Origin: a virus
Taxonomy: Duplodnaviria > Caudoviricetes
Length of the DNA stretch: 64,000 bases
IMG/VR virus record: IMGVR_UViG_3300048854_000081
Coordinates: 64,001-128,000 of that record
Reading direction: 5' to 3' (one strand)
The notes under the pieces were generated by a model, which searched no databases, was not told the origin of the DNA, and was given only the letters and a program-made list of their open reading frames with translations. The position numbers were made by a program, and so were the translations under genes. Positions 35,894 to 56,309 of this stretch are shown one piece after another (position 1 is the first letter of the stretch; every line of letters starts with the position of its first letter).

Positions 35894-36541
35894 ATGAATG
35901 GTAGCAAAATGCGTCCTAAATTGCAATGCCTTTACGATAAGGTTGCAGGCCGCGATGTCTTTGTCATAGGTGGTGGACCTAGCTTCAAGGATATCGACAA
36001 GCGAGTTCTTGATGGTAAGATTATTTTCTGTCTTAACACAGCATATCGTGAATTTCCTAATGCTACCGCCCTATATTGGTGCGACGAAAGCTGGATAGGA
36101 AATCATTACGATGCTGTCATGGACCACCCATGTCAATTACGTTTCACTGCTCGCCATACTGCCGATGGTTACATTAAGAAAGACCTGTTGGCTACTGGGA
36201 ATGCTACCGTTATGAAACGTACCGGAGATTACGGAATAGATACTGACTTCAATCATGTTCGTGGCAACAATAGCGGGGCTCACGCCCTAAATCTTCTTGG
36301 TAACATGCGAGCCAAACGTATTATACTATTAGGATACGATATGTCTCTTTCCGGTTCAGCTTCACATTGGCACGAAGGCCATGGTCTACCTATGGGAAAT
36401 TATGTTTACAATGACCTATTTATTCCATCGATCACCAGCATGGCTAATCCCCTAAAGAATCTAAAGGTGGAAGTGGTGAATTGTTCACCAACCTCTCGTC
36501 TAGACTGCTTCAAGAAAGATAAGCTTGAGAACTACCTATGA
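35894..36541 (+). CDS. Maf/DUF115-like putative glycosyltransferase
   Basis: VFVIGGGPS, N..Y, NSG..A, IILLGYD. Confidence 0.7.
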   Translation: MNGSKMRPKLQCLYDKVAGRDVFVIGGGPSFKDIDKRVLDGKIIFCLNTAYREFPNATALYWCDESWIGNHYDAVMDHPCQLRFTARHTADGYIKKDLLATGNATVMKRTGDYGIDTDFNHVRGNNSGAHALNLLGNMRAKRIILLGYDMSLSGSASHWHEGHGLPMGNYVYNDLFIPSITSMANPLKNLKVEVVNCSPTSRLDCFKKDKLENYL

Positions 36542-37266
36542 TATCCTGCCTAATTGTTAATTTCAATTGTCTGTTCCACACCAAAAACCTTATCAAAGAC
36601 GTAGAGGCTCAAGACCTCCAAGATTTTGAGTTGATCATCATGGACCAGAATTCACACGAGGAAGGTACAAAGGAATTCTTGGAATCTATCAAAAATAAGT
36701 ACACTGTTATTCAAAATGGGTATAATAAACCATTGAATACCATCTGGAATGACTTTGTAACCATGTCTAAGTATGATTACTGTGCATTTCTTAACAATGA
36801 CATCCGTATTCCAACTAATTTCTTATCTAATACTGTGGAAATCTTCAATCTAGAGCCATCAGTGTCCTGCGTCATTCATCCAACCAATCACAAGGATTGG
36901 AGCATAGCCAAAAAGAAGCTGTCTTATGAAATTTTGTCAGATAGAACTCGACAGGGTTGGGATCACAGCTTTAGGAAGTCAGACTGGGTTACTATCCCAT
37001 CCATCCTAGACTTTTATTGTGGTGATGACTTTATCTTTGAAAATGTATATCTAAGAAATAAACACGTGGCTATGGCCTTAAGTTCACCAATTATCCATTT
37101 ATTAAGTCAAACTCGCAAGAGTCCACTTAATAAGGTCATTCCTAATAGAAATCCTATCAAGGATGTGGAGAGCTATAAGAAGTTAGGGTTCCGACACTAC
37201 CTTAATATACTGGATAAATATTCGAAAATTGAACCAGAAATAGCCCACATAAGGCAGGAATCATAA
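36538..37266 (+). CDS. GT2-family glycosyltransferase
   Basis: IVNFN, IIMDQNS, AFLNNDI, YCGDD. Confidence 0.85.
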   Translation: MISCLIVNFNCLFHTKNLIKDVEAQDLQDFELIIMDQNSHEEGTKEFLESIKNKYTVIQNGYNKPLNTIWNDFVTMSKYDYCAFLNNDIRIPTNFLSNTVEIFNLEPSVSCVIHPTNHKDWSIAKKKLSYEILSDRTRQGWDHSFRKSDWVTIPSILDFYCGDDFIFENVYLRNKHVAMALSSPIIHLLSQTRKSPLNKVIPNRNPIKDVESYKKLGFRHYLNILDKYSKIEPEIAHIRQES

Positions 37267-37739
37267 TGGCATATACAAATGTAGAGATTGTAAGAGGATT
37301 AAACGTAAGAATTGACGAAACCGTAAAAATTATCGGTAGTGGTAAGATAATTCTAGGTGATAATGTTCAAATTCGTGCTTATTCTATTATAGAAATCGAC
37401 GGTACCTTGGAAATTGGTGCTAGAAGTGTAATTGGATATCATAATTTTATACAATGTTCCGGAATATGCAAAATTGGTGTCGGCTCTTTGATCGGTCCTA
37501 ATACTGTAATGTTGGCTTCCAGTCACCAAATTACTGACGTTCCTTTGGTCGATGAGAAAATGTTGCGCAGTTTTCTAACAATTAAAGATAATGTGTGGGT
37601 AGGTGCCAATTGCACCATCAACCATGGGATTACTTTAGATGATAATTGTATTATTGGTGCAAATAGTTTTGTGAAGGCTAATGTAGGAAAGAATGAGATT
37701 GTAGGTGGCGTTCCAGCCAAGTTAATTAGAACTCGCTAA
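37266..37739 (+). CDS. hexapeptide-repeat (LbH) sugar O-acetyltransferase
   Basis: IKDNVWVGANCTI..GI.....CIIGANS.V...GGVPAK. Confidence 0.9.
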   Translation: MAYTNVEIVRGLNVRIDETVKIIGSGKIILGDNVQIRAYSIIEIDGTLEIGARSVIGYHNFIQCSGICKIGVGSLIGPNTVMLASSHQITDVPLVDEKMLRSFLTIKDNVWVGANCTINHGITLDDNCIIGANSFVKANVGKNEIVGGVPAKLIRTR

Positions 37740-38689
37740 TGAACTTCATCTTTGTCGTAGCCCTTAATAATGCAACCAATGCATATCAATATAAAACCAT
37801 CACTGGTCTATTTCGCACTTTAGCAATAACATTAGAAGAATTGGGTCACCAAACACATATTGTCTGTCATCCTGATTCGATCTTACATGCTCAAGATTAT
37901 ACCAAGACATATCTAACTGAATTCCTAAACGGCAATAATTACCAAACTCTAATTGAAGAAATTGGATTTACCCCCGATTACGCTTTTATTTGGAACGGTA
38001 ATCCGCCTTATGATGAAGTTACTATTAAATTATTGCAAGACAATAAAATAAAGATAGTATATGGGGAACTTGGTTTCTTCAAACACTTCAATAAAACCTG
38101 CTATTTCGATCTTAGTGGTGTCAATTGTAAGATTAGAGATATTATCGATCCGTTAAATGAACCTATTACCGAAGATGATCTTCAATTGGTTGAATTACTT
38201 AAGGAAGATAATATCCAACCTCGTTTAATAGAAGAACCTTATATTTTTATCCCATTACAAATTGAAACTGACACACAAATCGTAAAATATTCCCCTTTTA
38301 AGACAATGGATAAGTTTCTAACTCATGTAGCAGAAATCTTTAATGGAGATAATCGAAAGATTGTTTTCAAACAACATCCACTTAAATCTTCACCGATCAG
38401 TTCCTATGATAAATTCGTAGAGGTGACTGAAGATGTTCACCATTATATTCCCTATGCTGATCTTGTTGTCGGCATAAATTCTACTGTTCTGATGGAATCA
38501 TTGATCTATCATAATAGAATTATTAGCTTTGGTGCAAGTATTGCCTCTAGACAGTTGTCCGAAGAGCAAAGAATCAAATTGTTAGCCAAGCTTCAAAGGA
38601 AACAGGTCAATTGGGAAGACCTAAAAGACAAGGATAAGGTAGAGAATTCAAGATTCTACCAAGAAATATTAGAGGATTATAGTAAATGA
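37739..38689 (+). CDS. KpsS/KpsC-like capsule-synthesis glycosyltransferase
   Basis: E.GF, FIPLQ..D.QI, FKQHP, GINSTV..ES. Confidence 0.75.
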   Translation: MNFIFVVALNNATNAYQYKTITGLFRTLAITLEELGHQTHIVCHPDSILHAQDYTKTYLTEFLNGNNYQTLIEEIGFTPDYAFIWNGNPPYDEVTIKLLQDNKIKIVYGELGFFKHFNKTCYFDLSGVNCKIRDIIDPLNEPITEDDLQLVELLKEDNIQPRLIEEPYIFIPLQIETDTQIVKYSPFKTMDKFLTHVAEIFNGDNRKIVFKQHPLKSSPISSYDKFVEVTEDVHHYIPYADLVVGINSTVLMESLIYHNRIISFGASIASRQLSEEQRIKLLAKLQRKQVNWEDLKDKDKVENSRFYQEILEDYSK

Positions 38690-39381
38690 ATGGTATTAAA
38701 TGGTCTAAAGTAGATACGAGTAAGAAAGTTGATACTGTAATCATTGTATGTACTGGTCCAAGTTTGAAGAATTTCAACTTTGAATCATTACGCGACAAGG
38801 GCTATATCATTGCAGTGAACGATGCCGGTAAGTACGTTCCGTTCGCAGATGCATGGTTTACGCTCGATCCATGGGGTTGTGGTATAGGTGGTAAGCAATA
38901 TCCGGAAAATTTCCGTGGTGATTTATTTGCTGCTGTACCTGAAGACTATGGTACGACGTATGCCCGAAGCCTTGATCATAAGATTCAGGCAAACCCTAAG
39001 ATTAACTTCCTACATCGAATCCCATTCCATTCTGTTTCGCAGTCAGATATCAAAACTTACGATTATCTGACATGGGGATTTAACGATGATCGTGGAAGTA
39101 TCCACACAGGTAATTCCGGCTTTGGTGCTATGAATATGGCTTACCATATGAGACCAAAACGCATTGTTTTATTAGGATTAGATGCTAGCAGTGGTTATTT
39201 CTTTAATGAAAATAAGCCAACTCGCACTCTTAACCATCTACCATTAATCTTTAGATCAACATTACCACAACTAAAAGAAGCTAACATTGAGGTTCTAAAT
39301 GGAAGTCAGTTATCCAAAATCGATTGCTTCCCTAGATATGCCCTTAATGTTATAACCAAAAGACTTGAGACGCCAGCATGA
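38686..39381 (+). CDS. Maf/DUF115-like putative glycosyltransferase (paralog of 35894)
   Basis: IIVCTGPSL, IAVND, NSGFGA, IVLLGLD. Confidence 0.7.
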   Translation: MNGIKWSKVDTSKKVDTVIIVCTGPSLKNFNFESLRDKGYIIAVNDAGKYVPFADAWFTLDPWGCGIGGKQYPENFRGDLFAAVPEDYGTTYARSLDHKIQANPKINFLHRIPFHSVSQSDIKTYDYLTWGFNDDRGSIHTGNSGFGAMNMAYHMRPKRIVLLGLDASSGYFFNENKPTRTLNHLPLIFRSTLPQLKEANIEVLNGSQLSKIDCFPRYALNVITKRLETPA

Positions 39382-40655
39382 TACAAAATAAATTAAAATT
39401 ACACCTTGAAGACTCTTTAAAGCTTGACGGATCAGTTATCGACTTCCGTGTTTATGATGCACAAAACTTCTCTCTTATTCTAAACACCTTAAAAGGAAGT
39501 GACAAGCATTGCTATGGCGTCGATACATTCAAAGGTTTGGGTGATCCTACACAGGAAGATAGTCGCGATCCTGACACATACAGAGTTAAGAAAGGTGCAT
39601 TTTTAATTAATAGAAGTCTCACCAAACTTAATATTCGTTCTGATAATGAAAACTACTCATTAACTGAGACGGATAACTATAATGATTTAGAGTGGGTTAT
39701 TCCAGAACTAGAGAAATTCTGCTTCGCTTTAGTCGATTTGAAACAATTTGCCTCTACCAAGAAAGTTTTAGAATACCTTTGGACACGAATGACCTATGGT
39801 GGAACTATTTTCGTAGCCAATTATCACGAATCGTCAAATCATTCTGAACACATTGCAATCAAAGCATTTGTCGAGGCACATGATGAAGAAGTCAACGTTT
39901 CCAGACAAATGATGGTCAATGGTGTACATGAGAAGTTTATTGCCATTAAATGCTTGCGTGATGCGGTGAAGCCAGCCAATTGGAGAAGCTACACCAAATC
40001 CCAAAAAGTAACCATAGCAATGGTTCTTAAGACTGGCGGCGAAGTTTACAATTACAAATACGTCAATGCTCTTGCAAAATCAATCAAAGAAAACGTTACA
40101 GTTCCTCATGAAGTTGTAGTACTTACCGATAATCCGAAGGGATTCACTTGGGATGTTGATAGAGTTATTCCATTAGCTAATAACTACCCTACATGGTGGA
40201 GTAAGATAGAATTGTTCAAGCCGTACCAGTTCGATGGTCCTGTGTTCTATTTTGATTTGGATACCGCCATTATTGGTAACATTGACGATATCGTATCGTA
40301 TGATGGTGATTTTGCTGGGTTGAGAGATTTCTATGGTCTGCATTCCCTTGGAAGTGGTCTTATGGGATGGAATCCTAAGCATACAGATAAAATTTATCTC
40401 GATTTTGCACCACGATACAGCACCATCATAACCAATTATAAGGAAGGTGATCAGAAGTGGATCGATGAGAATAAGCCCTCAGTCGAGTATCTTCAGGACA
40501 TCTATCCTAATCAAATCGTATCTTTCAAGAGACATTGCTTGGATAAGCATGGTCAGATCGTTATTCCAGAGAAAGCTAAGATCATTTGCTTCCATGGTAA
40601 CCCGCGACCACATTCGATTACCCACCCTGTTATATCAAAATATTGGAATTCTTAA
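39378..40655 (+). CDS. TylF-like methyltransferase + GT-A (DxD) fusion
   Basis: N: FRVY, GVDTF.GL, LVDL..F.ST, GG.I; C: WWSKIELF, YFDLDT, D.K, FHG.PRP. Confidence 0.7.
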   Translation: MIQNKLKLHLEDSLKLDGSVIDFRVYDAQNFSLILNTLKGSDKHCYGVDTFKGLGDPTQEDSRDPDTYRVKKGAFLINRSLTKLNIRSDNENYSLTETDNYNDLEWVIPELEKFCFALVDLKQFASTKKVLEYLWTRMTYGGTIFVANYHESSNHSEHIAIKAFVEAHDEEVNVSRQMMVNGVHEKFIAIKCLRDAVKPANWRSYTKSQKVTIAMVLKTGGEVYNYKYVNALAKSIKENVTVPHEVVVLTDNPKGFTWDVDRVIPLANNYPTWWSKIELFKPYQFDGPVFYFDLDTAIIGNIDDIVSYDGDFAGLRDFYGLHSLGSGLMGWNPKHTDKIYLDFAPRYSTIITNYKEGDQKWIDENKPSVEYLQDIYPNQIVSFKRHCLDKHGQIVIPEKAKIICFHGNPRPHSITHPVISKYWNS

Positions 40656-40694
40656 TATCCATAAATACACAGATAGTATTTGACCGGAAACCGA

Positions 40695-42527
40695 ATGGCG
40701 ACAATAACATATAAGTGCAATGTCTGCGAAAGAAACATTGATCTACTTGAGAACAAGCAAGGTCTGACCACATTTTCTAAATGTGTGATTACGTATGGCT
40801 GCAAAGGTAAGTTATTAAAAACTAAGAGAAATCCTGACAATATCCGAGAATCATTCCCGGTAGAAGTGCCGGGGCTGGAAGATTACAGTCAACGTCGAGT
40901 TCTATTCGATTACACTCAGACTCTTCCAAGTTCGGTGTGGGTTATCTCGCATGATCTTAACACATCACCTACGGTTTCAGTTTATATCCTGAATACTACG
41001 ACAAAAAAATATGATGAGCTTGATCAGAATCAGTACAAGATTACGATTCTTGGTACAAATCGCTTAAAGCTTACCTTTAAGAATTCATACGTCGGCAGAG
41101 CCCAGTTAGTTTCAAGAAACTCGATAAAGTCGGTTCCTACCAGTGTTACTCCGGTTCTTGCTCCATTCCAAGTTACCAGTACTGGCTATTTCGTATTCGC
41201 TGTACCAAAATATCTAACGAAGTTTGAATACCCGCCTTCGATTCTTCCTACTCCACAACTTCCATACGATCTTAATGCACTTCCAATCAGAATTGAAGTC
41301 AGCATTAAGAAGCCTAACGAGGAAGAAGAAATATGTACAGAAATCTTCTCTAGTTCACTTTCCAATACTCCGTGGACTGGTTGGAATGAGGTTCTTGTTC
41401 GAAAGAGAAGAAACTATTACCTATTCAGCAAGAGCATTCTAGCTTTTAGAACCTTTGGTGGTGACACTCTTAAATTCAGTGACATTCCAGATGGAACACA
41501 GCTTAAAATCACACGTATCGACTATGGTACTGGTGTACTTCAGCCTATTCCACCGGAAGGTTTGTACATTCTATTGGCCGGTACTCCATTTACCACCAAT
41601 GATAAAATTAAGGATAAGGTCGTTGACGTAGCCAATATGGTTGACAACGATATCGATTATTTTTCTTATACTACATCAGATTTCTTTGTTGACCAATCTA
41701 ATGTCGAAAAAACCTATCCAGAACTATTGCAGGTCAAGGCGGTTAACTTCATTCCACCTACACCAAGCCCTACACCTACAATTTCTCCTACAATTTCACA
41801 AACTCCGTCAGTTTCCTTGACTAAATCGGTTATTGTCAGTGCAACACCACAGGCGTCTCCACAGCCTTCGTCCAGCATTCCGGCAACTCCAACACCAACA
41901 GCTTCGGTAACGAAGTCAGCTACACCTACACCAACGGTTACTCCAACTCCTACTCCGGGTTCGTTCAACCAACCATTCGACTTTGCTCTAGTTCGTTACA
42001 CATGGAATGCAGGCGATGGTACCGACCTAGATACCAGAACCGCCATTATCGTTCCACCACGCAATATTGACGTGGGTTGGAGTCGTGCAGATGTTGATGG
42101 AACCTACCTTAACTGGGGTGGTGATAATACCTCACCTAACGGTCCAGAAGCCGTACTAATCGATTTCAATTCGTTGTCTACTGACTATCCAGATATTGAT
42201 GATTTTTCTATTAGATTAAGATTGAACTGGTATAGCACGCGTTTGGATGGTAATGTGGGTATACAATTCCAAAGCTATTTGGGTGGTACCATGCAACATA
42301 GTGGTACCGACTTTGTTAACGTTGGTGGACAATTAGTTAATGATGCAACAGTTTACGTAAACTGTGTAAGTAACAGTGCTGGTAACGTAGATGGTTCGGA
42401 TATTGGTACGTTGAATTATGATAGCGGTACAAAGACGGCTAGCTTCATTCCGTTAGTTCCGGCTGTAACGCCTACTCAAACTCCACAACCTTCGCCAACT
42501 CCAACGGCAACACCATCAAGCACTTAA
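40695..42527 (+). CDS. virion structural protein with TP stalk
   Basis: Late promoter 40661; CxxC N-terminus, W.I.H.L motif, TP repeats. Confidence 0.8.
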   Translation: MATITYKCNVCERNIDLLENKQGLTTFSKCVITYGCKGKLLKTKRNPDNIRESFPVEVPGLEDYSQRRVLFDYTQTLPSSVWVISHDLNTSPTVSVYILNTTTKKYDELDQNQYKITILGTNRLKLTFKNSYVGRAQLVSRNSIKSVPTSVTPVLAPFQVTSTGYFVFAVPKYLTKFEYPPSILPTPQLPYDLNALPIRIEVSIKKPNEEEEICTEIFSSSLSNTPWTGWNEVLVRKRRNYYLFSKSILAFRTFGGDTLKFSDIPDGTQLKITRIDYGTGVLQPIPPEGLYILLAGTPFTTNDKIKDKVVDVANMVDNDIDYFSYTTSDFFVDQSNVEKTYPELLQVKAVNFIPPTPSPTPTISPTISQTPSVSLTKSVIVSATPQASPQPSSSIPATPTPTASVTKSATPTPTVTPTPTPGSFNQPFDFALVRYTWNAGDGTDLDTRTAIIVPPRNIDVGWSRADVDGTYLNWGGDNTSPNGPEAVLIDFNSLSTDYPDIDDFSIRLRLNWYSTRLDGNVGIQFQSYLGGTMQHSGTDFVNVGGQLVNDATVYVNCVSNSAGNVDGSDIGTLNYDSGTKTASFIPLVPAVTPTQTPQPSPTPTATPSST

Positions 42528-42571
42528 TCATCCGAAATAGTAATAAATAGGTTAGACTATTTTGGATTAGC

Positions 42572-45500
42572 ATGAAGATTAATTTTAGACAAGGAATCAT
42601 TGGGTGTCAAAGACTCCCAAAATTCATCAAGGTAACTTCACCAACGACTGCATCTTTTGATGCTTCGGTATTACCTACTGTTCTAAATTTTGCTGATGGT
42701 GCATCCAATTACCTTTATTATCTAAAAACCTCGATTGAACCTGCATGGATTTTTCCTGCGGGAGTAGAGTGCTGGTTATATTGGGATATTAGTACCGAAG
42801 ATAGCTCGTTTTCTTTTGGATACACTCCATTCAATCCATTCGCGACGACCGCACCAACCAACCCCCAAATTAATCAGATGTACTTTGATCTTACCGATTT
42901 CAAGTACAAGGCTTGGACAGGTCAATATTGGAGAAACGTTATCCGTGTCATCGCGGGTTCTGTGGATGCACAAGGAAAGGCTGTTCTTCAATCCACCGGC
43001 AGTCAGATCAATTGGCAGATATCTTGTATTACAAATGAAATTGTACTGGATGAAACTGCACGTCCTATTAAGAAATACAATGATGCTGGCTTTGAATTTT
43101 ATAACAAAGATACCATCAAGACTTTCAAGAAAGAATCGAATGATACTTTTACTTATTCCCGTTTAGTAAATGCTCATGGTGAGGCTGAAACGCCTATTTT
43201 GAAGCACTATTGTGTTACTTGGAAGAATTTTAACACATTAGAACCTGCTGATCCACAAATGTTAACACAACCCGCTTTCGCTCTTGCTGAGCGTGAAGTT
43301 GGTACAGGTGAGCTTACAAGCTTGTATTTCGATGGTTTTGTCACCAATAGAACCGATTGGAATTGGACTTATACAGAACATACACCATTGTATGTTGGTA
43401 GTCATGGTCAACTAACAGTAGATTTTGATCCAGTTTTCTCTTTCCAAACAGTTGGTTACATTGTTTCACAGAACACCATTTATGTGAATTTTTCTGAACA
43501 ATATGTCAGTCAAAATCACCCAACACTAACACCATCACCAACCACGTCTCCTACACCAACTGTTACACCTTCAGTTACGGTTTCCATGAGTGTGTCTCCG
43601 GAAGCTACCGCAACCCCTACACCAACAGTTACATCCAGTGCTACACCAAGTGTAACGGTTACTCCAACATTAACGGCTACGCCTTCTCATACATTAACAC
43701 CATCGGTTACTGTAACGAGAAGTTTGACCTTAACTCCAACACCTACCAATACTCAGACTGGTTCACCGTTTGTTACACATACTGCGACGCCTTCTGTATC
43801 GCAAACTGCGTCTCTAACTTCGACACCTACACCAACCGTCTCTCAGACCGCCTCTCCGTCCATTACACACTCTCCGACGCCAACTGTGTCCGAGACTGCA
43901 TCTTTGACCATGACGCCTTCTGTGACGCCTACAAGAAGTCTTACAGTAACCCCAAGTCATACGATATCGCCAAGCGTTTCGTTTACTCATACAGCAACGG
44001 CTACCCCAGCGGCGACACATACGGTAACTCCAACAGTCACACCTACTGTGACTCGCTCCATTTCCATCACACCATCGGTAACTCCAACACATTCGTTGAC
44101 ACCATCGGTCACGGGTACTCCGGGTGCTACCTTGACTCCATCGGTTACTATTTCGATATCCGTGTCGCAAACGTTGTCACCAACAGTCACACCAACCTTG
44201 ACAGCTACCCCTTCGATAACAGCTTCACCATCGGAGACTCCACAAGCTACCTTAACAAATACACCGACTGCAACTGTCACTCAGACAGTTACACCAACCT
44301 TGACACCTACCGTAACTCCAACCATTTCCATTACACCATCAGTAACAGCTAGCCAAAGCGTAAGTTTAACAGCTTCGTTGACTCCTACGGTAACATCTTC
44401 AGTTACACCAACGGTGACACCAACTATTTCACTAACAGGTGAAGTTACACCTACGCCTACGAGTTCAATCAGCCCAAGTCCAACCTTAACTCCAACAAAT
44501 ACCGCAACGGTCAGCGTTTCGTCGTCGCTAACTCCTACACCAACAGTAACGGCTTCACAAACCATTACAGTATCTACAAGTGCCACACCGGGTGCTACTG
44601 CTACGCCAACAGCTACGGTTACACCAACGATTTCTGTAACACCATCTGTTACGGGAAGTTTGACCTTGACCCCAACATCGACTGTTACGCCTTCAGTAAC
44701 CCAGTCAATATCTGTATCTCTAACACCATCCCCAACCGGAACTCCGGCTGTAACGGTATCTGTATCAGGAACACCGCCTGTTACACCAACCGCTACGGCT
44801 ACCATAACTCCAACGAATACAGTTACCCCTTCGGTGACAGGTTCGCTTACATTTACTCCAACTGCGACTGCATTACCAACAGTCACACCAACAATTTCTA
44901 CAACTCCATCCGTGACAGCGACCCCACCTGTAACTCAGTCGCTATCCGTGACACCAAATCCTACTGGAACTCCACCAGTAACTCCAACAAGCACACTTAC
45001 ATTAACTCCGACTCAGACTGCCTCGGTGACGTTAACGGCACAACCTACGGTCACACCTACACTTTCACTAACACCATCCCCATCGTTGACGGCATCGTTG
45101 ACCTTAACTCCTACACCAACATCGGAAGTAACTGTAACTCCAACTCTGACCGTAACTCCTTCCGTAACACAGTCAATTTCTGTGAGCTTGACTGCGACAA
45201 TTACTCCAACGATTTCTTCGACACCTCCGGTAACGCAGACAATTTCGACTACCCCATCACCTACCCCAACGATAACTGGTTCGATTACTCCATCGGTAAG
45301 CATTTCGCCATCTGGAACAATTACACCTACCCCAACACCATCGCAAACTCCAACAAACCAAGATTTGTTAGTAATGGCACATAACAATACTCCACGCGTT
45401 GCGGTGTATGGTCAAAATGGTTCCACATTCACCCCAATTACTCAAAGCTTAGGTATTACGACGGGTGATGGTCGTGCAATTGCAATGAGTCCTGATTCTG

Positions 45501-46342
45501 GTTATATGGCTTTTGGTAAAACAGACAGTAATGCTCCATTCCTATATGTGTTTGCTCGTAGTGGTAACTCATTCGTGAGCACTGGGGTAAGCATTTCTGC
45601 CCAGCCTGCTGGTGTGGTTCAGGGCTTGGATTTCAGTCCAGATGGAACACTACTGGCTGTTGCACATGGTGTTTCACCATTCGTAACGGTTTACACTAAA
45701 AGTGGTGGTACGTTTACAAAATTGACTGGTAACTTTGACGTTTTACCAACTAATACTGGTAACCGCGTTAAGTTCTCGCCTGACGGAAATTTCTTGCTTG
45801 TAAGTACCAACGTCACTGGTGTGTTGTTATACCAGAGAAGCGGTAATAACTTTACCAAGGTTACTGCTGCGGCATTACCTACGAATACAACATATAGTAT
45901 GACCTTCACTCCTGATAGTGCTTACTTGGCGATTGCCAGTGCCCAGTCTCCATTCTTGTTTGTGTACCAGTTTAATTCTGGTGCCCCAGTTAAGGTAGCT
46001 GATTCGGCCAATATCCCAACAGCAGCTTGCTATACCATTAACTTTAATCATACAGGAACGATGCTATCCGTAGGTACTCTATCGGCATCACCATTCCTAT
46101 ACACGTACTCATTCTCGGCTGGCGCATTAACTAAGCTACCTGATCCAGATGTATTGCCAGCAGGCAATGTCACAGGTATCACATACACTACAGCGAATGA
46201 TTATCTGTGTGTAGGTGCGGGCACGACACCGTTTATCTACATATATTCGATTAGTGGAACAACATTCACTAAGGTAGCTGATCCAACTACTCTACCGGGT
46301 GGACCAGCATTTGACATTTCCTCCGTAAGAATTCAAGGGTGA
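42572..46342 (+). CDS. large mucin-like fibre protein with C-terminal beta-propeller
   Basis: Late promoter 42543; ~610-aa T/P/S/V stalk; FSPDG/PF..VY repeats. Confidence 0.85.
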   Translation: MKINFRQGIIGCQRLPKFIKVTSPTTASFDASVLPTVLNFADGASNYLYYLKTSIEPAWIFPAGVECWLYWDISTEDSSFSFGYTPFNPFATTAPTNPQINQMYFDLTDFKYKAWTGQYWRNVIRVIAGSVDAQGKAVLQSTGSQINWQISCITNEIVLDETARPIKKYNDAGFEFYNKDTIKTFKKESNDTFTYSRLVNAHGEAETPILKHYCVTWKNFNTLEPADPQMLTQPAFALAEREVGTGELTSLYFDGFVTNRTDWNWTYTEHTPLYVGSHGQLTVDFDPVFSFQTVGYIVSQNTIYVNFSEQYVSQNHPTLTPSPTTSPTPTVTPSVTVSMSVSPEATATPTPTVTSSATPSVTVTPTLTATPSHTLTPSVTVTRSLTLTPTPTNTQTGSPFVTHTATPSVSQTASLTSTPTPTVSQTASPSITHSPTPTVSETASLTMTPSVTPTRSLTVTPSHTISPSVSFTHTATATPAATHTVTPTVTPTVTRSISITPSVTPTHSLTPSVTGTPGATLTPSVTISISVSQTLSPTVTPTLTATPSITASPSETPQATLTNTPTATVTQTVTPTLTPTVTPTISITPSVTASQSVSLTASLTPTVTSSVTPTVTPTISLTGEVTPTPTSSISPSPTLTPTNTATVSVSSSLTPTPTVTASQTITVSTSATPGATATPTATVTPTISVTPSVTGSLTLTPTSTVTPSVTQSISVSLTPSPTGTPAVTVSVSGTPPVTPTATATITPTNTVTPSVTGSLTFTPTATALPTVTPTISTTPSVTATPPVTQSLSVTPNPTGTPPVTPTSTLTLTPTQTASVTLTAQPTVTPTLSLTPSPSLTASLTLTPTPTSEVTVTPTLTVTPSVTQSISVSLTATITPTISSTPPVTQTISTTPSPTPTITGSITPSVSISPSGTITPTPTPSQTPTNQDLLVMAHNNTPRVAVYGQNGSTFTPITQSLGITTGDGRAIAMSPDSGYMAFGKTDSNAPFLYVFARSGNSFVSTGVSISAQPAGVVQGLDFSPDGTLLAVAHGVSPFVTVYTKSGGTFTKLTGNFDVLPTNTGNRVKFSPDGNFLLVSTNVTGVLLYQRSGNNFTKVTAAALPTNTTYSMTFTPDSAYLAIASAQSPFLFVYQFNSGAPVKVADSANIPTAACYTINFNHTGTMLSVGTLSASPFLYTYSFSAGALTKLPDPDVLPAGNVTGITYTTANDYLCVGAGTTPFIYIYSISGTTFTKVADPTTLPGGPAFDISSVRIQG

Positions 46343-46378
46343 AATAAATAGTACAATGAATTCTAAGGTAAATTTTAC

Positions 46379-47167
46379 ATGAAGTATTATGGTGACATAG
46401 AACTGATGGGTAGTACCATCCTAAATGCCCTGATTGAAAATCTTGGCAGTGATCCCGTTTTTACCGTTGAAGAGTCCGGTCGTATTTACTTTAACACTAC
46501 GTCTGATACATTAAGATTGAATAATGGCACCACTTATGTGGATGCCTCGCTGCCAGCAACTTTTAGTAATCTTATCGATAGCTTGGGCGCAGTCTGGATC
46601 AATACTGATCTAACCTTCAATCCATCGGCTTTCAATCAGTTAATCAATGTTGGTAGCTTAACAGCTAACGATTCTCTATTCACCGTCTTACAGCAGCTAG
46701 ATAGTGCCATTAAAGATTCAAATATCGGTATTCTTGATTTAAGCGACGTTGCGGTTACAACAAACTTAGAACAAGGTGACATTCTTTTCTATAACGGAAC
46801 GAATTTTACCTTTGCGGATATCGACTCACTAGTCCAGAATTACGCGCACCTATCCTTGAGTAACTTAACTGACGTTACTCTAGGTGATGTGGGAAGTGGT
46901 GATTTCTTAGTATATGACAGCGTAACTTCAAAGTTTGTCGCTGCAAACCCTATTCAGCCGTACGAAGACTTGCAGGTATCGACGAATCATACCATCTTAC
47001 ATACGTTGGGTGTCAAATATTGTAATGTAACGGTTATCAACCGTTCGACTGATACAATTATCACTGACGCGATTGTATCATTCTTAGATATTAACCAGAT
47101 ACAAATCACACTGAACACACCAGCCCCAGTGCTTGTTATTGTAACCGGTTCACCTAATCTATCTTAA
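46379..47167 (+). CDS. tail-fibre-like structural protein
   Basis: Late promoter 46344; GRIYFNT, L.DV....GD.L.Y repeats. Confidence 0.75.
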   Translation: MKYYGDIELMGSTILNALIENLGSDPVFTVEESGRIYFNTTSDTLRLNNGTTYVDASLPATFSNLIDSLGAVWINTDLTFNPSAFNQLINVGSLTANDSLFTVLQQLDSAIKDSNIGILDLSDVAVTTNLEQGDILFYNGTNFTFADIDSLVQNYAHLSLSNLTDVTLGDVGSGDFLVYDSVTSKFVAANPIQPYEDLQVSTNHTILHTLGVKYCNVTVINRSTDTIITDAIVSFLDINQIQITLNTPAPVLVIVTGSPNLS

Positions 47168-47397: not shown

Positions 47398-47503
47398 TTA
47401 TTATACAATTATTTATCTTACATGTGGTCAGAACACCATTGTACCATAAATATTGTTTTATACCCAGCAGCAATAAATATTCGAAAAGAATGCGAACCCT
47501 GTA

Positions 47504-52189: not shown

Positions 52190-52217
52190 TAGATAAATAG
52201 GACATACGGATTTAACA

Positions 52218-55200
52218 ATGGCAATTATAACCTTCGACAACTTTAAATTTGACAATACCGCTGCGGCGATACCTGCAACAAATTGGGGTGTTTTCACTAG
52301 TGCTGGCTCTACTTTTGCCAATGCATTTACAAAAAATGGCTATTCATCTAGTGGTTTAGATTTATCTATCACCACGACTGGTGCCGTGGCTCACGGTTCA
52401 TCATATGTAGCAAAATCGAATATAACTCAAAATAATACAAATATTATTACACCAGCGGCAAATTTTAGTGGCCCTCGTCTAGCATTAGGATTTAGTGTTT
52501 CTAAATATCCTCAGAGTGGTTCAATGACCATTGAACCACAATTGACTTCGGATATGACACCATACATTGGTACGAACTCGACTGCCGTTTACAACGGCGA
52601 TGGTTCGCATATGATTGTCAGTAGATATAATAGCGCCACCTCACAGGGAATCGTAGAACTTTGGGTAAGAAATACTGGTGGGAGCAATGCATATACATTT
52701 ATCACACAACTTCTCATTCTACCCAATGCCACAGGATTTTCAACAATAAGATTTTCTCAGGATGGTTTATATTGGGCTATCGCATATAGCGTAACTGGTG
52801 GTTCATCGTTGTTCATCTTTAAAAGATCAGGACCAACTACAAATGCATATAACCAAGTTTTCACCTCAACTGGATTATCCGGTTCTGCAACTTCATTGGC
52901 TTGGAATAGCGGTGGAAGTGTTATCGTGGGTACTGGTCTCAGCCCATTCGTTTATTTTTTCTTTAAAAACAGTTCAAGTGATGCATGGACTAAAACCCCA
53001 AATCCCAGCACATTACCTGCAACTACAGTTAACGCCGTCACTGGCGGAACTGATAGTATTGTTGGTGTAATATGTTCTGCTGGATCATTTGTGTATCTCT
53101 ACAGTATTGGTAGTACATCTGCACCATCATTCATAGGGTCCACCTTTACTGGACTTAGTAACCCTATCGGTTTTGACATGAATAACTCTCTTGTTACTGT
53201 TATCGGGACTAATACAGCACCATTCATAAAAATATATACGAATACTGCTGGTGCAACTTTGTCTTTCCCCGATACCCTTGTGAGACAGCCTACGACTATT
53301 AAATTTAATCCCGAAGGTACTATGTTTACCATTGCATATAATACCGATGGTTTCGCTCCGGCTACTTATAAATTGTCTGGTAATCCCCTATCTGTGGTTA
53401 ATGTTGGAACAACACCATTACCATCAGTAGGAACTAAAGACATCGTTTTTAGTGCAGATAATAACTATACCGCACTATCTGTATCCACAGCCAGTGCATC
53501 TACACAAGGATTCTACACTTTTGATAATCAAGTAAACGTTATTGCTACTATATCACCGGGTATGGTCGAAGGAAGCACATCTTCAGATAATTATGGTTAT
53601 TCTGGTGGTACTTCGCGTTTTTCAATTACCGTACAAGATGAATTTCTAGGTCTTAGATATTATTCCGCTAATACTGGTGGCGTGTATCCTGTTGGTAGAG
53701 CAATTTCTTCAAGAGCAGTAGGATTTGTTGACAATAATTTTACTAATGCATATATCGAATGGTACTTGAATAACAGTAACACTTCTACACTAACAACTAC
53801 CTCTGCATTATATCTAAATGGTACGCCCGTTACAGTTCAGGTTGCGCTTACCGGAACTACCTCTATGTTACCAGCGACCGATTTCTCTTCATTTTTTAGT
53901 GGAAATGTGTCCGTTTCATTTAAACGAGATATTAACGTATCATCTGCCACTACCTTAAATTGTGTTGTTAGTGATTTCTATATGCTGGACGCCTCTGGTC
54001 CAATAAATACTGCGCCATTAGGTGTGTGCTCTGTGGTACAAGAACCACTTCTCTCAGATAAATCTAAGCAGTGGACCTCTACTGGTCCTAATAGTTATAG
54101 TGTACTTTCTAATAATCCACCTGATCCATCTGCATACGTGTCTTCTAACACAATTGGAGCTACGGATATCATCAATTTAGATAATACATTTAATACAAAT
54201 GCGTATGCATCTAAGATAAGCATAAAAGCAAAGGTGACTTCCCCAACTTCGTCAACTGGGTTGACTTTGGTTGATGGTGATAATTTAAACGTGTTAAATA
54301 CCCGATTGACTCCGGCGTTTAAAGAATACAATTATACGAGTGAACTCCATTCAACTTATGTTGCGGCAGCTACTACCACTATTGGCGGACAGATTGTCAT
54401 CCTTAAATTGGCACCAAAATCTGCAACACCAACTCAATTACCAGTGATAGGATTGTCTTCAACTGGAACTGGAAATGCTACTGCTATGGTGGCTGATGGT
54501 TCAGTCGCAGCTTTAGGTTTAGTCAATACCGCAGCACCTTATGTTCAAATTTTTAATAGAAAAAACGATGTTTATACTGCTACATCACAGACATTTCCTG
54601 ACATAACAACTGCCGTTGCTTTGCTTGAATATTCGTATGATGGTAAATATCTTGCAATTCGTCAAGGTACTCCTAACTCAACGGTAACTATATACTCTGT
54701 GGTAGGGGATGTTTATACTAAAATTACAGATTTATCTACAACTGCTGCCATTACAGCTATTAAATTCTCAAAGGGCGGAAAATATCTATTCGTGGGGACC
54801 AATACAGGTTCAACAGCAAATAAAATATATTCTATTAATTCCTCAACCAATACATTTACTCCATTAACCTCACCTGTAACAGCATCTATTTCTTGTATGG
54901 ACACTGTTATAGATTTAACCCAAACAGTTGAATATGTTTTGTTTGGTCTTAATACCTCTCCATGGCTAGCTATGTATAAAATAAATAATAATGATACCTT
55001 TACAGCAGCTACAGTAACTACACAGTCGTTGATTACCCAAAATCCAACTTCAGTGGCATTTTCTACCATGTTGACACCAACATCGAATGCAAATATATCT
55101 ATTATACAAAACTCTACAACAAACACCGGATTAGCAACGGCATATGTAACCGCAACAAATACGCTTGCATCTGCGACCAGTGCAGGCCAAGCAGCGTCCA

Positions 55201-55427
55201 CTACTGCAAAGCTTTACAAATCTGTGTCTAAAAATGCCTTTGCTATTCTTGCTCCAACCAGTGGTGGTGCTCTTACATATACATACGTTGGCAGTTTACC
55301 ACTTAATTCAGGTATTCCAGTAGTCGCAGGACCATTTTTTACATTATCCACATTAGTCAATACTTCTATATCTATGGCTGAGTTGGTTGAAAACTACAAC
55401 ACTATCGGCTATACCTATACCCTATAA
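52218..55427 (+). CDS. beta-propeller-containing fibre/adhesin protein
   Basis: Late promoter 52193; FSQDG/YSYDG/FSKGG and SPF.. repeats. Confidence 0.8.
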   Translation: MAIITFDNFKFDNTAAAIPATNWGVFTSAGSTFANAFTKNGYSSSGLDLSITTTGAVAHGSSYVAKSNITQNNTNIITPAANFSGPRLALGFSVSKYPQSGSMTIEPQLTSDMTPYIGTNSTAVYNGDGSHMIVSRYNSATSQGIVELWVRNTGGSNAYTFITQLLILPNATGFSTIRFSQDGLYWAIAYSVTGGSSLFIFKRSGPTTNAYNQVFTSTGLSGSATSLAWNSGGSVIVGTGLSPFVYFFFKNSSSDAWTKTPNPSTLPATTVNAVTGGTDSIVGVICSAGSFVYLYSIGSTSAPSFIGSTFTGLSNPIGFDMNNSLVTVIGTNTAPFIKIYTNTAGATLSFPDTLVRQPTTIKFNPEGTMFTIAYNTDGFAPATYKLSGNPLSVVNVGTTPLPSVGTKDIVFSADNNYTALSVSTASASTQGFYTFDNQVNVIATISPGMVEGSTSSDNYGYSGGTSRFSITVQDEFLGLRYYSANTGGVYPVGRAISSRAVGFVDNNFTNAYIEWYLNNSNTSTLTTTSALYLNGTPVTVQVALTGTTSMLPATDFSSFFSGNVSVSFKRDINVSSATTLNCVVSDFYMLDASGPINTAPLGVCSVVQEPLLSDKSKQWTSTGPNSYSVLSNNPPDPSAYVSSNTIGATDIINLDNTFNTNAYASKISIKAKVTSPTSSTGLTLVDGDNLNVLNTRLTPAFKEYNYTSELHSTYVAAATTTIGGQIVILKLAPKSATPTQLPVIGLSSTGTGNATAMVADGSVAALGLVNTAAPYVQIFNRKNDVYTATSQTFPDITTAVALLEYSYDGKYLAIRQGTPNSTVTIYSVVGDVYTKITDLSTTAAITAIKFSKGGKYLFVGTNTGSTANKIYSINSSTNTFTPLTSPVTASISCMDTVIDLTQTVEYVLFGLNTSPWLAMYKINNNDTFTAATVTTQSLITQNPTSVAFSTMLTPTSNANISIIQNSTTNTGLATAYVTATNTLASATSAGQAASTTAKLYKSVSKNAFAILAPTSGGALTYTYVGSLPLNSGIPVVAGPFFTLSTLVNTSISMAELVENYNTIGYTYTL

Positions 55428-55436
55428 GGAAATATT

Positions 55437-56309
55437 ATGAAATACGCTTACAGAAAGGTTTACACGGTTGATAATGGATATAATACTCTATTACCTACCA
55501 CTGGTGATTCACCAACATATGATCCCAATGCTCATTATGATTGGTATTCTGATGTCCATGGTCCATTGGGATTTGCCTTAATTACTCTCAATGGGTATGC
55601 TGGATTAGCAGACGGTGATACCTATATCGTGGTTTCTTATGATGACGCTGATGTCACCCTAGATGACTATGATCCATCTGTTATACATGTCTCAAAGTAC
55701 ACAGTAGTGTATTCATGCGTGACGCCAGATGACACGTTTAAAAGTTATTTTGATTTTACACAGTTGACTTCTCTTGGCGCATTTATGTGGGGATATTACA
55801 TTCAAAATTATGATGACGTAATTGATTATGTAACAAATCAACAGGACATGTCTAATTGGGTAACGTCTGTTAGATCAACCGATGCGGCTCGTTTTAAGCC
55901 ATTGATTGTAGATCAGGATTGGATTTATTATTGGGCAACACAGTTGGATGATATTTCATTTTTACCATTGTTGACTAATCAAGAGTATATTTTCAGCTAT
56001 TCACAAATTTTCCCTGATAGAAAAGATATGATCAAAGATATGTTGACCGATCCTTATTGGATTGGATTATTTAATCAAATATTCCCTGATGATCCTATCA
56101 TTACTGCAACGCCTACTCCAACACCAACTTTTACACCTGAAGCAAGCGGTTTACAGACTCCTACACCAACACCTTCACCAGAAGTAGAGCCAACGCCTGA
56201 ACCTTCAGTTGACGTTACACCAACTCCATCGTCATCCGAAGTAGAACCTGAACTTTCAGTGACACCTACACCATCCGTAACAGCAACACCTTCTTCAACA
56301 GAAGGTTAA
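55437..56309 (+). CDS. late protein with acidic TP-rich tail
   Basis: TAAGGA RBS; TPTPTPSPEVEP C-terminus. Confidence 0.8.
   Translation: MKYAYRKVYTVDNGYNTLLPTTGDSPTYDPNAHYDWYSDVHGPLGFALITLNGYAGLADGDTYIVVSYDDADVTLDDYDPSVIHVSKYTVVYSCVTPDDTFKSYFDFTQLTSLGAFMWGYYIQNYDDVIDYVTNQQDMSNWVTSVRSTDAARFKPLIVDQDWIYYWATQLDDISFLPLLTNQEYIFSYSQIFPDRKDMIKDMLTDPYWIGLFNQIFPDDPIITATPTPTPTFTPEASGLQTPTPTPSPEVEPTPEPSVDVTPTPSSSEVEPELSVTPTPSVTATPSSTEG

What the first reader, a model, noticed from the sequence alone, without database searches (positions are those of the whole stretch)
35894..56309. Phage-encoded glycosylation cluster adjacent to mucin-like virion fibres: candidate viral glycocalyx
Seen: six coupled late genes (two Maf/DUF115-like, GT2, LbH acetyltransferase, KpsS-like, methyltransferase-GT fusion) immediately precede late genes with very long Thr/Ser/Pro tracts (40695, 42572 with ~610 aa, 47504, 55437; also 29425). 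In these tracts Thr/Ser occupy nearly every second position and charged residues are rare (55437 excepted). Established: such tracts are O-glycosylated stalks in mucins and cellulase linkers; Maf proteins O-glycosylate flagellin Ser/Thr; some mycobacteriophages glycosylate their virions. Inference: cytoplasmic O-glycosylation builds acetylated/methylated glycans on stiff stalks presenting LamG and propeller heads, for adhesion, protease or desiccation resistance, or shielding.
Basis: partly seen in the sequence, partly recalled or inferred. Interest (0 to 1): 0.82.

Follow-up and report, generated by a model that had tools for sequence, protein, structure and literature searches.

The report
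Jumbo-phage sugar-coating operon beside mucin-like fibres
A 350-kb uncultured phage has a late operon of six sugar-handling enzymes directly upstream of giant proteins with mucin-like Thr/Ser/Pro stalks; it most likely sugar-coats virion proteins, but the enzyme that tracks such stalks across viruses is a different one, encoded elsewhere in the genome.

Summary
Six translationally coupled genes lie at 35894-40655: two Maf/CstII-like transferases, a GT2, a hexapeptide sugar O-acetyltransferase, a KpsS-like beta-Kdo-transferase homologue, and a sugar-O-methyltransferase/GT8 fusion. They sit behind a late-type CTAAATA box. Downstream come late-box genes with Thr/Ser/Pro tracts of up to 631 residues, LamG domains and beta-propellers.

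Maf-Maf-MT/GT8 is the conserved core in all XacN1-like phages and always lies directly upstream of the p615 fibre-family gene. GT2-LbH-KpsS fills a variable slot that holds other glycosyltransferases, or nothing, in relatives. In distant small phages the same Maf/MT/GT8 module sits beside the capsid gene, which points to virion modification. XacN1 virions stain with periodic acid-Schiff (PMC5852040).

The link to the stalks is weaker. Of 69 unselected viral records encoding (TP)5 tracts, 9 carry a GT60-like enzyme (this genome has one 13.5 kb downstream) and only 1 carries a Maf-like gene. None of 25 distant Maf-bearing records encodes a TP tract. This cluster therefore more likely extends or caps glycans, or modifies another virion protein, than initiates stalk glycosylation.

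No sugar has been measured. The scan had already flagged this system, in this genome and in many others.

The parts
35861..35868 (+). Late-type promoter box CTAAATAG, 33 nt before the first gene. A mirror CTAAATA on the minus strand faces the divergent gene 35309-35839.
35894..36541 (+). Maf1: a 215-aa bare catalytic core of a Maf/GT42 sialyltransferase-like transferase, paralogue of Maf2 (about 27% identity). Part of the conserved core.
   Evidence: Pfam PF01973 E 5.5e-5 (below cut-off); phrog_4603 E 4e-39; orthologues in XacN1, Xoo-sp13, RAS14 and the IMG/VR relatives
36538..37266 (+). GT2 family glycosyltransferase (242 aa); part of the variable insert.
   Evidence: PF00535, 48.3 bits against a cut-off of 23.3; present only in L004, L005, L006 and this phage
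37266..37739 (+). Left-handed beta-helix (hexapeptide) acetyltransferase of the WbbJ/WcaF/maltose sugar O-acetyltransferase type; part of the variable insert.
   Evidence: PF00132, 52.9 bits; NCBIfam best hits WbbJ and WcaF, below equivalog cut-offs
37739..38689 (+). KpsS/LipB-like (Capsule_synth) protein. All characterised members of this family are beta-Kdo transferases. Part of the variable insert, and absent from L004.
   Evidence: PF05159, 34.5 bits against a cut-off of 20; ESM Atlas structure TM 0.76-0.82 to KpsS/LipB clusters, GT99-related cluster also listed; the only cultured-collection homologue is the uncultured 462-kb phage LR756500
38686..39381 (+). Maf2: a 231-aa Maf/GT42 sialyltransferase-like transferase. 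Part of the conserved core.
   Evidence: phrog_2111 E 3e-41; AF2 pLDDT 94.2; Z 13.7 to Maf 5mu5 and Z 10-11 to Cst-I/Cst-II; GxGPSL and SG..LG..I.L.GiD motifs align with CstII; P1 PmgP/PmgO are homologues
39378..40655 (+). Fusion protein. The N-terminal half is a TylF-type sugar O-methyltransferase. The C-terminal half is a retaining GT-A (glycogenin/GT8-like) glycosyltransferase with an invariant D293-L-D295 motif. Part of the conserved core.
40680..42527 (+). p615 (likely true start ATG 40695). It has a conserved ~350-aa N-terminal domain with an N-terminal 4-Cys motif, then a TSP tract (352-435), a phrog_24956 domain and a TSP tail (582-615). It is the first gene after the operon in every clade member.
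42572..46342 (+). p1256: N-terminal domain, a 631-aa Thr/Ser/Pro stalk (residues 305-935; DNA 43484-45376) and a C-terminal beta-propeller-like domain.
46379..47167 (+). p262: small late protein without a TSP tract. It shares a short domain (phrog_21918) with p615 and gives a weak 'virion structural protein' PHROG hit.
   Evidence: conserved after p615 in L007-L009, L014 and L016
47504..52189 (+). p1561: four TSP tracts (55-99, 243-281, 740-948, 1363-1537) separating three LamG_3/ConA-like lectin-fold domains and further beta-rich domains.
52218..55427 (+). p1069: Thr/Ser/Ala-rich protein with beta-propeller-like repeats and no long TSP tract.
55437..56309 (+). p290: globular N-terminal part plus a 75-aa TP-rich tail that is unusually acidic (14.7% charged).
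29425..30927 (-). p500: minus-strand protein whose C-terminal 222 residues are TSP tract running to the stop codon.

Best explanation
This is a late, cytoplasmic virion-glycosylation operon of a XacN1-like jumbo phage.

Its conserved core is two Maf/CstII-like transferases plus a sugar-O-methyltransferase/GT8 fusion. This core is a portable phage module that elsewhere sits beside capsid and tail genes.

Between the two Maf genes lies a cassette slot. In this lineage it holds a GT2, a sugar O-acetyltransferase and a KpsS-like beta-Kdo-transferase homologue.

The enzymes would use host nucleotide sugars. For the Maf-like and KpsS-like enzymes the likely donor is CMP-Kdo, because the phage encodes no ulosonic-acid synthase and no CMP-activating enzyme. 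With these donors they would build a short acidic, O-acetylated and O-methylated glycan on the fibre-like virion proteins encoded just downstream.

Initiation on the Thr/Pro stalks themselves is more probably done by the GT60-like enzyme encoded 13.5 kb further on. This operon would then extend or cap those chains, as sialyltransferases cap mucin O-glycans, or else glycosylate a separate site such as the conserved p615 N-terminal domain.

Shown: gene content, folds, synteny, the variable slot, and the co-occurrence statistics. Inferred: late timing, virion location of the acceptors, donor identity, and any glycan at all on this phage.
For: - Enzyme identities and folds.
- Tight coupling and late-type boxes shared with the downstream genes.
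- The order Maf1-(slot)-Maf2-MT/GT8-p615 family is invariant in XacN1, Xoo-sp13, RAS14 and 14 IMG/VR relatives. In XacN1 and Xoo-sp13 it runs straight into the tail sheath stabilizer and tail sheath genes.
- Slot content varies: nothing in XacN1; a PF03407 nucleotide-sugar transferase in L007; GT2+LbH in L004; GT2+LbH+KpsS here and in L005/L006.
- In the small phage L030 the order is portal, MuF, capsid, Maf, connector, Maf, SAM methyltransferase, GT8, tail tube, tape measure. In 14 of 24 distant loci the ORF picked upstream of the Maf gene (directly upstream in most) is a major capsid protein.
- Homologues of the fusion occur fused to PF01973, PF00535, PF05050 and PF00777 domains.
- None of the six enzymes or the downstream proteins has a TM-like segment.
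- XacN1 virions show at least 2 PAS-positive bands: PMC5852040.
- The phage has no CMP-sugar synthetase, NeuB or KdsA.
Against: - No glycan has been measured on this phage, and the PAS-positive XacN1 bands were not identified.
- None of the downstream proteins is proven to be a virion component. PDB, Atlas and PHROG searches gave no structural-protein assignment.
- Across viruses the Maf and MT/GT8 families do not track TP tracts (Maf 1/69, MT/GT8 1/46; 0/25 in the reverse test), whereas GT60-like does (9/69; Fisher p = 0.017 against Maf).
- The core persists next to p615 homologues that have no tract.
- The P1 homologues PmgO and PmgP are dispensable in the laboratory and have no known function.
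- KpsS-type, GT2 and WbbJ-type enzymes are classically polysaccharide enzymes.
Confidence: 0.6

Rival explanations
1. The operon glycosylates virion proteins, but not the Thr/Ser/Pro tracts. Its acceptor would be a folded site, for example the conserved p615 N-terminal domain or a head or tail protein. The stalks would be served only by the separate GT60-like system, or be bare linkers. This overlaps with the general part of the best explanation and differs only in the acceptor.
For: The Maf and MT/GT8 families are absent from TP-tract-bearing viral records, and TP tracts are absent from distant Maf-bearing records. The core is kept where p615 has no tract. The GT60-like gene is present in all three complete relatives searched (G001, G003, G005) and enriched in TP records.
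Against: In this clade the operon is always co-oriented and contiguous with genes that usually do carry tracts. Known Maf enzymes act on Ser/Thr. Nothing excludes cooperation between the two systems.
Confidence: 0.3
2. The enzymes remodel host envelope glycans (LPS core, O-antigen or capsule) late in infection. The purpose could be to stop progeny or competing phages adsorbing to infected or lysed cells. The position next to the fibre genes would then be incidental.
For: KpsS/LipB, GT2 and WbbJ/WcaF-type acetyltransferases are typical polysaccharide enzymes. Maf2 weakly resembles the LPS Kdo-III transferase WaaZ. Jumbo-phage GT clusters have been read as capsule or O-antigen modifiers (PMC7824862). 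An earlier scan note left the same question open for the P1-type trio.
Against: There is no membrane-associated component, flippase or polymerase in the cluster. The promoter type is shared with the fibre-like genes. The core sits inside head-tail modules in small phages. XacN1 virions carry glycoprotein.
Confidence: 0.12
3. The glycosyltransferases hypermodify phage DNA, for example by glycosylating hydroxymethyl-pyrimidines.
For: Phage GTs often act on DNA (review statements quoted). A thymidylate-synthase-family gene lies next to the cluster at 56339-57271.
Against: That gene scores as an ordinary thymidylate synthase (TIGR03284, 215 bits against a cut-off of 108). Sialyltransferase-like, KpsS-like, sugar O-methyl- and O-acetyltransferases are not known DNA-modifying enzymes. 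The operon uses the late-type box of the fibre-like genes and is not part of the replication genes on the opposite strand.
Confidence: 0.03

Closest known systems
Mycobacteriophage virion glycosylation (Che8 and others; Freeman et al. 2023, as summarised in PMC12619734; the original was not readable here)
   Same: Phage-encoded glycosyltransferases lie next to structural genes, and virion proteins are O-glycosylated in the host cytoplasm.
   Different: The enzyme families differ (here Maf/GT42-like, GT8, KpsS-like, GT2). The candidate acceptors are giant fibre-like proteins with mucin-like stalks rather than the C-termini of capsid and tail-tube subunits. The host is probably Gram-negative. 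No glycan has been measured here.
Maf flagellin nonulosonic-acid O-glycosyltransferases (Magnetospirillum Maf, PDB 5mu5) and GT42 sialyltransferases Cst-I/Cst-II
   Same: Same catalytic fold (Z 13.7 and 10-11). The GxGPSL and SG...GiD nucleotide-binding motifs are shared. Maf acceptors are protein Ser/Thr.
   Different: The phage proteins are bare 215-231-aa cores without the flanking Maf domains. Their PF01973 scores are below the Pfam cut-off. There is no linked flagellin or nonulosonic-acid pathway. Donor and acceptor are unknown.
Phage P1 PmgO/PmgP ('putative morphogenetic function') and the Maf + methyltransferase + GT8 trio of many phages
   Same: Homologous proteins (26-27% identity over 83% of Maf2), late or structural-module context, and paired paralogues.
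   Different: P1 has no reported mucin-like proteins, and its genes are nonessential by CRISPRi (PMC10695390). Here the module carries an extra GT2/acetyltransferase/KpsS cassette and precedes Thr/Ser/Pro-stalk genes.
KpsS/KpsC (GT107) and WbbB (GT99) beta-Kdo transferases of capsule and O-antigen synthesis
   Same: Pfam Capsule_synth domain above the cut-off, and predicted structure TM 0.76-0.82 to KpsS/LipB clusters.
   Different: The protein has 316 aa, with no kps export genes nearby and far below the NCBIfam KpsS equivalog cut-off (17 against 600 bits). It would have to act on a protein-linked glycan rather than lyso-phosphatidylglycerol.
Mucin-type O-glycosylation and GT60 (PF11397) polypeptide alpha-GlcNAc transferases; PAS-positive XacN1 virion proteins (PMC5852040)
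   Same: Long Pro/Thr/Ser tracts with few charges. A GT60-like gene is conserved in the clade and enriched in TP-tract-bearing viral records. The glycoprotein stain is positive in the cultured relative.
   Different: The GT60-like gene is not part of the reported cluster (it lies 13.5 kb beyond it). Glycosylation would be cytoplasmic, not in the Golgi. The stained XacN1 bands were never identified.
Chlorovirus PBCV-1 capsid glycosylation by virus-encoded enzymes
   Same: A virus-encoded multi-enzyme glycan pathway, independent of host glycosylation machinery, that includes methylated sugars.
   Different: PBCV-1 is a eukaryotic virus with N-linked atypical glycans on the major capsid protein, and the enzymes are unrelated.

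Membership tests
Maf / PF01973 (MptE-like) flagellin glycosyltransferases | Sequence match to PF01973 above Pfam's gathering score | tested here: not met
   Maf1 scores 23.4 bits and Maf2 28.3 bits against a cut-off of 34.6. Many close homologues do carry a precomputed PF01973 hit.
Maf / PF01973 (MptE-like) flagellin glycosyltransferases | Central catalytic domain with the Maf/GT42 (GT-A variant) fold | tested here: met
   Maf2 model pLDDT 94.2; Z 13.7, rmsd 3.6 over 188 residues to 5mu5 residues 253-517
Maf / PF01973 (MptE-like) flagellin glycosyltransferases | About 600-aa architecture with flanking domains, and linkage to flagellin and nonulosonic-acid biosynthesis genes | tested here: not met
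   The proteins have 215 and 231 aa. No NeuB or CMP-sugar synthetase is found in the phage genome.
GT42 sialyltransferases (Cst-I/Cst-II) | N-terminal GNGPSL-type motif and SG...GID motif; same fold | tested here: met
   In a profile search of the PDB the top hits are all CstII/CstI, with both motifs aligned (E 0.016-0.04, weak). Z is 10-11.
GT42 sialyltransferases (Cst-I/Cst-II) | Catalytic His base and use of a CMP-sialic acid donor | not testable with these tools
   No residue-level structural superposition or assay was available. The donor is inferred only.
KpsS/KpsC beta-Kdo transferases (PF05159, GT107) | Capsule_synth domain above the Pfam cut-off and the same fold | tested here: met
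   34.5 bits against 20; TM 0.76-0.82 to KpsS/LipB clusters
KpsS/KpsC beta-Kdo transferases (PF05159, GT107) | Equivalog-level identity to KpsS, and context of kps capsule export genes | tested here: not met
   NF050054 scores 17 bits against a cut-off of 600. The neighbours are phage genes.
GT8 (glycogenin-like retaining GT-A) | GT-A fold with a DxD motif | tested here: met
   Foldseek E 7e-9 to glycogenin 6eql and 1zcv. D293-L-D295 is invariant in 49 homologues.
TylF-type sugar O-methyltransferases (PF05711) | Class I methyltransferase fold of the TylF/MycF/CalS11 type | tested here: met
   Foldseek E about 1e-8 to 3tos, 4x7v and 4ce0. The protein's own Pfam score of 17.6 is below the cut-off of 23, but many homologues carry PF05711.
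Phage virion glycosylation systems (mycobacteriophage type) | Glycosyltransferase genes embedded in or contiguous with virion structural genes | tested here: met
   Contiguous with the p615 family, tail sheath stabilizer and sheath genes in XacN1 and Xoo-sp13. Capsid-adjacent in 14 of 24 distant loci.
Phage virion glycosylation systems (mycobacteriophage type) | Glycan demonstrated on virion proteins and dependent on the phage GTs | not testable with these tools
   The only evidence is indirect: PAS-positive bands in XacN1 virions, not identified.
Mucin-type O-glycosylation | Long Pro/Thr/Ser acceptor tracts | tested here: met
Mucin-type O-glycosylation | A polypeptide-initiating transferase (GT27 or GT60) within the reported cluster | tested here: not met
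   None of the six genes is GT27 or GT60. The PF11397 gene lies at genome 133851-134819, outside the cluster and the window.

The most novel reading that the evidence does not exclude
The phage builds a sialomucin-like coat in the bacterial cytoplasm. A GT60-like enzyme would start O-glycans on the Thr/Pro stalks of tail appendages. This operon would then extend them and cap them with a host-derived acidic ulosonic sugar (Kdo), plus O-acetyl and O-methyl groups. The swappable cassette slot between the two Maf genes would give related phages different glycan 'serotypes'.
Probability: 0.25. Interest if true: 0.85.

Novelty: new variant of a known kind. Interest (0 to 1): 0.6.

Why it matters
Virion glycosylation is experimentally established only for a few mycobacteriophages. 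A second, enzymatically unrelated system in Gram-negative jumbo phages would show that phages sugar-coat their particles much more widely. It would involve sialyltransferase-like and Kdo-transferase-like enzymes and mucin-like fibres.

It would also give a function to the long-unexplained PmgO/PmgP-type genes of P1 and of hundreds of other phages. It would matter for adsorption, particle stability and immune recognition of therapeutic phages.

The idea can be tested directly. XacN1, Xoo-sp13, RAS14 and CM1 are cultured, and a XacN1 virion proteome is public.

Tried and rejected
- Sequence searches of the PDB with Maf2, KpsS-like, MT-GT, p615, p262 and the p1256 N-terminal domain gave nothing significant. 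The ESM Atlas gave no usable hit for the p615 N-domain.
- p262 is not the XacN1 'tail sheath stabilizer' (no similarity). That gene and the sheath gene lie elsewhere in this genome, at 148081-148764 (minus strand) and 238105-240207 (plus strand).
- Counting TSP tracts within 10 kb of GT60-like loci did not discriminate (33 of 65 loci had one) because the loci are local windows of related jumbo phages. I replaced this with whole-record searches.
- The DNA-modification idea was rejected: the neighbouring ThyA-family gene is an ordinary thymidylate synthase.
- Phage-encoded donor synthesis was rejected: no CTP_transf_3, NeuB or KdsA-type gene in the genome.
- The Freeman 2023 paper could not be read. 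The RsoM2USA and jumbo-phage review papers gave no relevant proteomics. No paper links DUF115 to phage glycosylation.
- tRNA and Rfam scans of the window found nothing relevant.
- Both structure-prediction jobs went to the enzymes, so the fold of the TSP tracts (extended stalk or beta-structure) and of the p615 N-domain was not tested.

Full report
**Context.** The window is bases 64001-128000 of a single 350,036-bp IMG/VR virus record that CheckV rates as complete. Gene content and synteny place it among the XacN1-like jumbo myoviruses: Xanthomonas phages XacN1 and Xoo-sp13, and Stenotrophomonas phages RAS14 and CM1. To the left of the region lie minus-strand replication and nucleotide genes: topoisomerase II subunits and ribonucleotide reductase alpha and beta. 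To the right lies a thymidylate synthase.

**Observation.**
- Six + strand genes from 35894 to 40655 overlap at each junction by 1 or 4 nt.
- Pfam, PHROG and NCBIfam identify a GT2 (PF00535), a hexapeptide acetyltransferase closest to the WbbJ/WcaF/maltose sugar O-acetyltransferases, a Capsule_synth (KpsS/LipB) protein, two paralogous MptE/DUF115-like proteins (phrog_4603, annotated 'alpha-2,3-sialyltransferase', and phrog_2111), and a TylF-like methyltransferase fused to a phage glycosyltransferase (phrog_1962).
- I built alignments of 49 homologues each and obtained confident AF2 models (pLDDT 94.7 and 94.2).
- Maf2 is closest to the central domain of the Magnetospirillum Maf flagellin glycosyltransferase (Z 13.7) and next to the GT42 sialyltransferases Cst-I and Cst-II (Z 10-11). 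A profile search of the PDB aligns both CstII nucleotide-binding motifs.
- The fusion protein is a sugar O-methyltransferase (CalS11/MycF/SpnH type) joined to a glycogenin-like GT8 domain with an invariant DLD motif.
- The KpsS-like protein has a predicted structure matching KpsS/LipB clusters at TM 0.76-0.82.
- None of the six proteins has a TM-like segment.

**The downstream proteins.** They carry the described tracts: 631 residues in p1256, 468 in p1561, 118 in p615, 75 in p290 and 261 in the minus-strand p500.
- The long tracts contain 31-33% Thr, 12-16% Ser and 16-19% Pro, with 1.6-4.3% charged residues. p290 is the acidic exception.
- Tandem-repeat structure at DNA level is weak, and all four Thr codons are used in the p1256 tract (the one tallied), so the tracts are kept by selection on the protein.
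- p1561 has three LamG_3 domains. p1256 and p1069 have beta-propeller-like regions.
- An [A/C]TAAATA box lies 19-35 nt upstream of the operon and of five of the six downstream genes, although TAAATA occurs only about once per 3 kb of strand. Reading this box as a late promoter is an inference from T4-type late promoters.
- The tracts are a genome-wide feature: about 17 proteins between 93 and 318 kb carry them.

**Comparative anatomy.**
- XacN1, Xoo-sp13, RAS14 and 14 IMG/VR relatives share the order RNR (minus strand), a 176-aa gene (minus strand), then Maf1, Maf2, MT/GT8 and a p615-family gene on the plus strand.
- In XacN1 and Xoo-sp13 this block runs straight into the genes annotated tail sheath stabilizer/completion protein and tail sheath. 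That argues the p615-family products belong to the tail.
- In this genome the stabilizer homologue sits next to another block of tract-bearing genes.
- XacN1 and RAS14 orthologues also carry TP tracts.
- GT2, LbH and KpsS are not part of the core. They occur only here and in L005/L006. L004 has GT2+LbH. XacN1-type genomes have nothing between the Maf genes. L007 has a different gene there, a PF03407 nucleotide-diphospho-sugar transferase.
- The position between Maf1 and Maf2 is therefore a cassette slot in which the glycan chemistry varies between relatives.

**The core module outside the clade.**
- Maf2 homologues at 25-39% identity occur in many small phages, usually as a pair and often with a GT8-domain homologue.
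- In L030 the order is portal, MuF, scaffold-like gene, major capsid, Maf, connector, Maf, SAM methyltransferase, GT8, tail tube, tape measure.
- In 14 of 24 distant loci the ORF picked upstream of the Maf gene (directly upstream in most) matches a major-capsid family.
- Homologues of the MT/GT8 protein are found fused to PF01973, GT2, Methyltransf_21 and GT29 domains.
- P1 PmgO and PmgP are members of the family. They are late 'putative morphogenetic' genes and are dispensable in CRISPRi screens.
- This placement is the strongest computational argument that the module acts on virion proteins. Earlier notes of this scan reached the same reading for many other genomes.

**Experimental anchor.** The XacN1 paper reports at least two Schiff-positive (glycoprotein) bands in purified virions. 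The authors attributed them to two annotated glycosyltransferases and did not identify the bands (PMC5852040). One annotated XacN1 glycosyltransferase is the orthologue (70% identity) of this genome's GT60-like gene.

- A scan of IMG/VR for DNA encoding (TP)5 gave an unselected set of viral records.
- Among the 69 that could be searched whole, 9 carry a PF11397 (GT60-like) gene. This family is found in only 4 of 50,697 cultured phage records, all of them in the XacN1 clade.
- Only 1 of the 69 has a Maf-like match, and it is weak. Only 1 of the 46 also tested has the MT/GT8 family.
- The Maf profile found all 5 of 5 known positives, including distant ones.
- The difference between 9/69 and 1/69 gives Fisher p = 0.017.
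- In the reverse direction, 0 of 25 distant Maf-bearing records encode even (TP)3.
- Within the clade, five relatives keep the core next to a p615 homologue that ends right after its N-terminal domain, with no tract.
- The three complete relatives searched (G001, G003, G005) have both systems and some TP-coding DNA, so the clade itself cannot separate them.
- Many of the sampled records are fragments, so an absence is soft evidence, but both families were tested on the same records.

**Conclusion from the test.** Across viruses the Thr/Pro stalks track the GT60-like enzyme, and the Maf core tracks structural modules. In this phage the GT60-like gene lies at genome 133851-134819, 13.5 kb beyond the reported region and outside the window.

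**Mechanism proposed.**
- Late in infection the operon is transcribed together with the fibre-like genes.
- The soluble enzymes use host nucleotide sugars. The phage has no CMP-sugar synthetase, NeuB or KdsA. From general knowledge, all characterised relatives of the Maf/GT42 fold use CMP-linked ulosonic acids, and characterised Capsule_synth and GT99 enzymes transfer Kdo. The only such donor universally present in Gram-negative hosts is CMP-Kdo, so an acidic Kdo-type cap is the most economical guess.
- GT2 and GT8 would add neutral sugars. The LbH enzyme would O-acetylate and the TylF-like domain would O-methyl them.
- The acceptor is either O-glycans started by the GT60-like enzyme on the stalks, or Ser/Thr on a folded virion domain such as the conserved p615 N-terminal domain.
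- My estimates: about 0.6-0.7 that the operon modifies virion proteins; about 0.35-0.4 that its products end up on the Thr/Ser/Pro tracts; about 0.3 that Kdo or another ulosonic acid is involved.

**Rivals.**
- Host LPS or capsule remodelling is compatible with the enzyme families. It fits poorly with the promoter type, the lack of membrane components and the structural-module context elsewhere.
- DNA glycosylation has no support: the adjacent ThyA-family gene is an ordinary thymidylate synthase.

**Novelty.**
- Phage virion glycosylation is known for mycobacteriophages, and glycoprotein staining was reported for XacN1. However, no paper found here links Maf/DUF115-like, KpsS-like or GT8/methyltransferase genes to it.
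- The scan has already reported the GT60 system in this same genome and the Maf/MT/GT8 trio in more than 100 other genomes, so this is not a first sighting.
- New here are four results: the separation of a conserved core from a variable cassette slot; the fold evidence for this clade's enzymes; the link to the XacN1 stain; and the finding that the stalks statistically follow the GT60-like enzyme rather than this operon.

Noticed in passing
window 47164-47397 (-): A 77-aa minus-strand ORF with one hydrophobic segment (AVALFVGILLGILLGITI) occupies the only large gap (336 bp) in the + strand late block, between p262 and p1561. It may be a small membrane protein.
   Followed up: no
L002 (RAS14) 19371-20001; record OP752703.1 about 76407-77037: The RAS14 Maf1 orthologue matches in two pieces in different frames (residues 6-115 and 114-215), and only a 94-aa ORF is annotated. 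This is either a frameshift (pseudogene) or a sequencing error, so Maf1 may be dispensable in that phage.
   Followed up: partly
L007 9402-10004 (+); the same position looks occupied in L008 and L016: The slot between Maf1 and Maf2 holds a 200-aa PF03407 nucleotide-diphospho-sugar transferase in this relative, in place of the GT2/LbH/KpsS cassette. The slot swaps glycosyltransferase cassettes between relatives.
   Followed up: partly
window 40695-40850 (p615 residues about 13-45): The conserved N-terminal domain of the p615 family starts with a four-cysteine CxxC...C...C motif (KCNVCERN...SKCVITYGCKG), which may be a zinc ribbon. Its fold and role are unknown.
   Followed up: no
window 35861-35893: Back-to-back CTAAATA boxes on opposite strands lie in the 54-bp gap between the divergent gene 35309-35839 (-) and the glycan operon. 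This suggests a bidirectional late promoter pair. The 176-aa divergent gene is conserved in this position in all relatives and has no family match.
   Followed up: partly
genome 148081-166654 (-), i.e. window coordinates 84081-102654, outside the window: The homologue of the XacN1 'tail sheath stabilizer' lies directly next to a second block of tract-bearing giant genes (422, 876, 938 and 3678 aa). The XacN1 arrangement (operon, fibres, stabilizer, sheath) is therefore split in this genome.
   Followed up: partly
L030 12799-13386 (+): In a small Mu-like-head phage the methyltransferase of the module is a separate gene between the second Maf gene and the GT8 gene. The MT-GT8 protein of the jumbo phages is therefore a fusion of two neighbouring genes.
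   Followed up: partly
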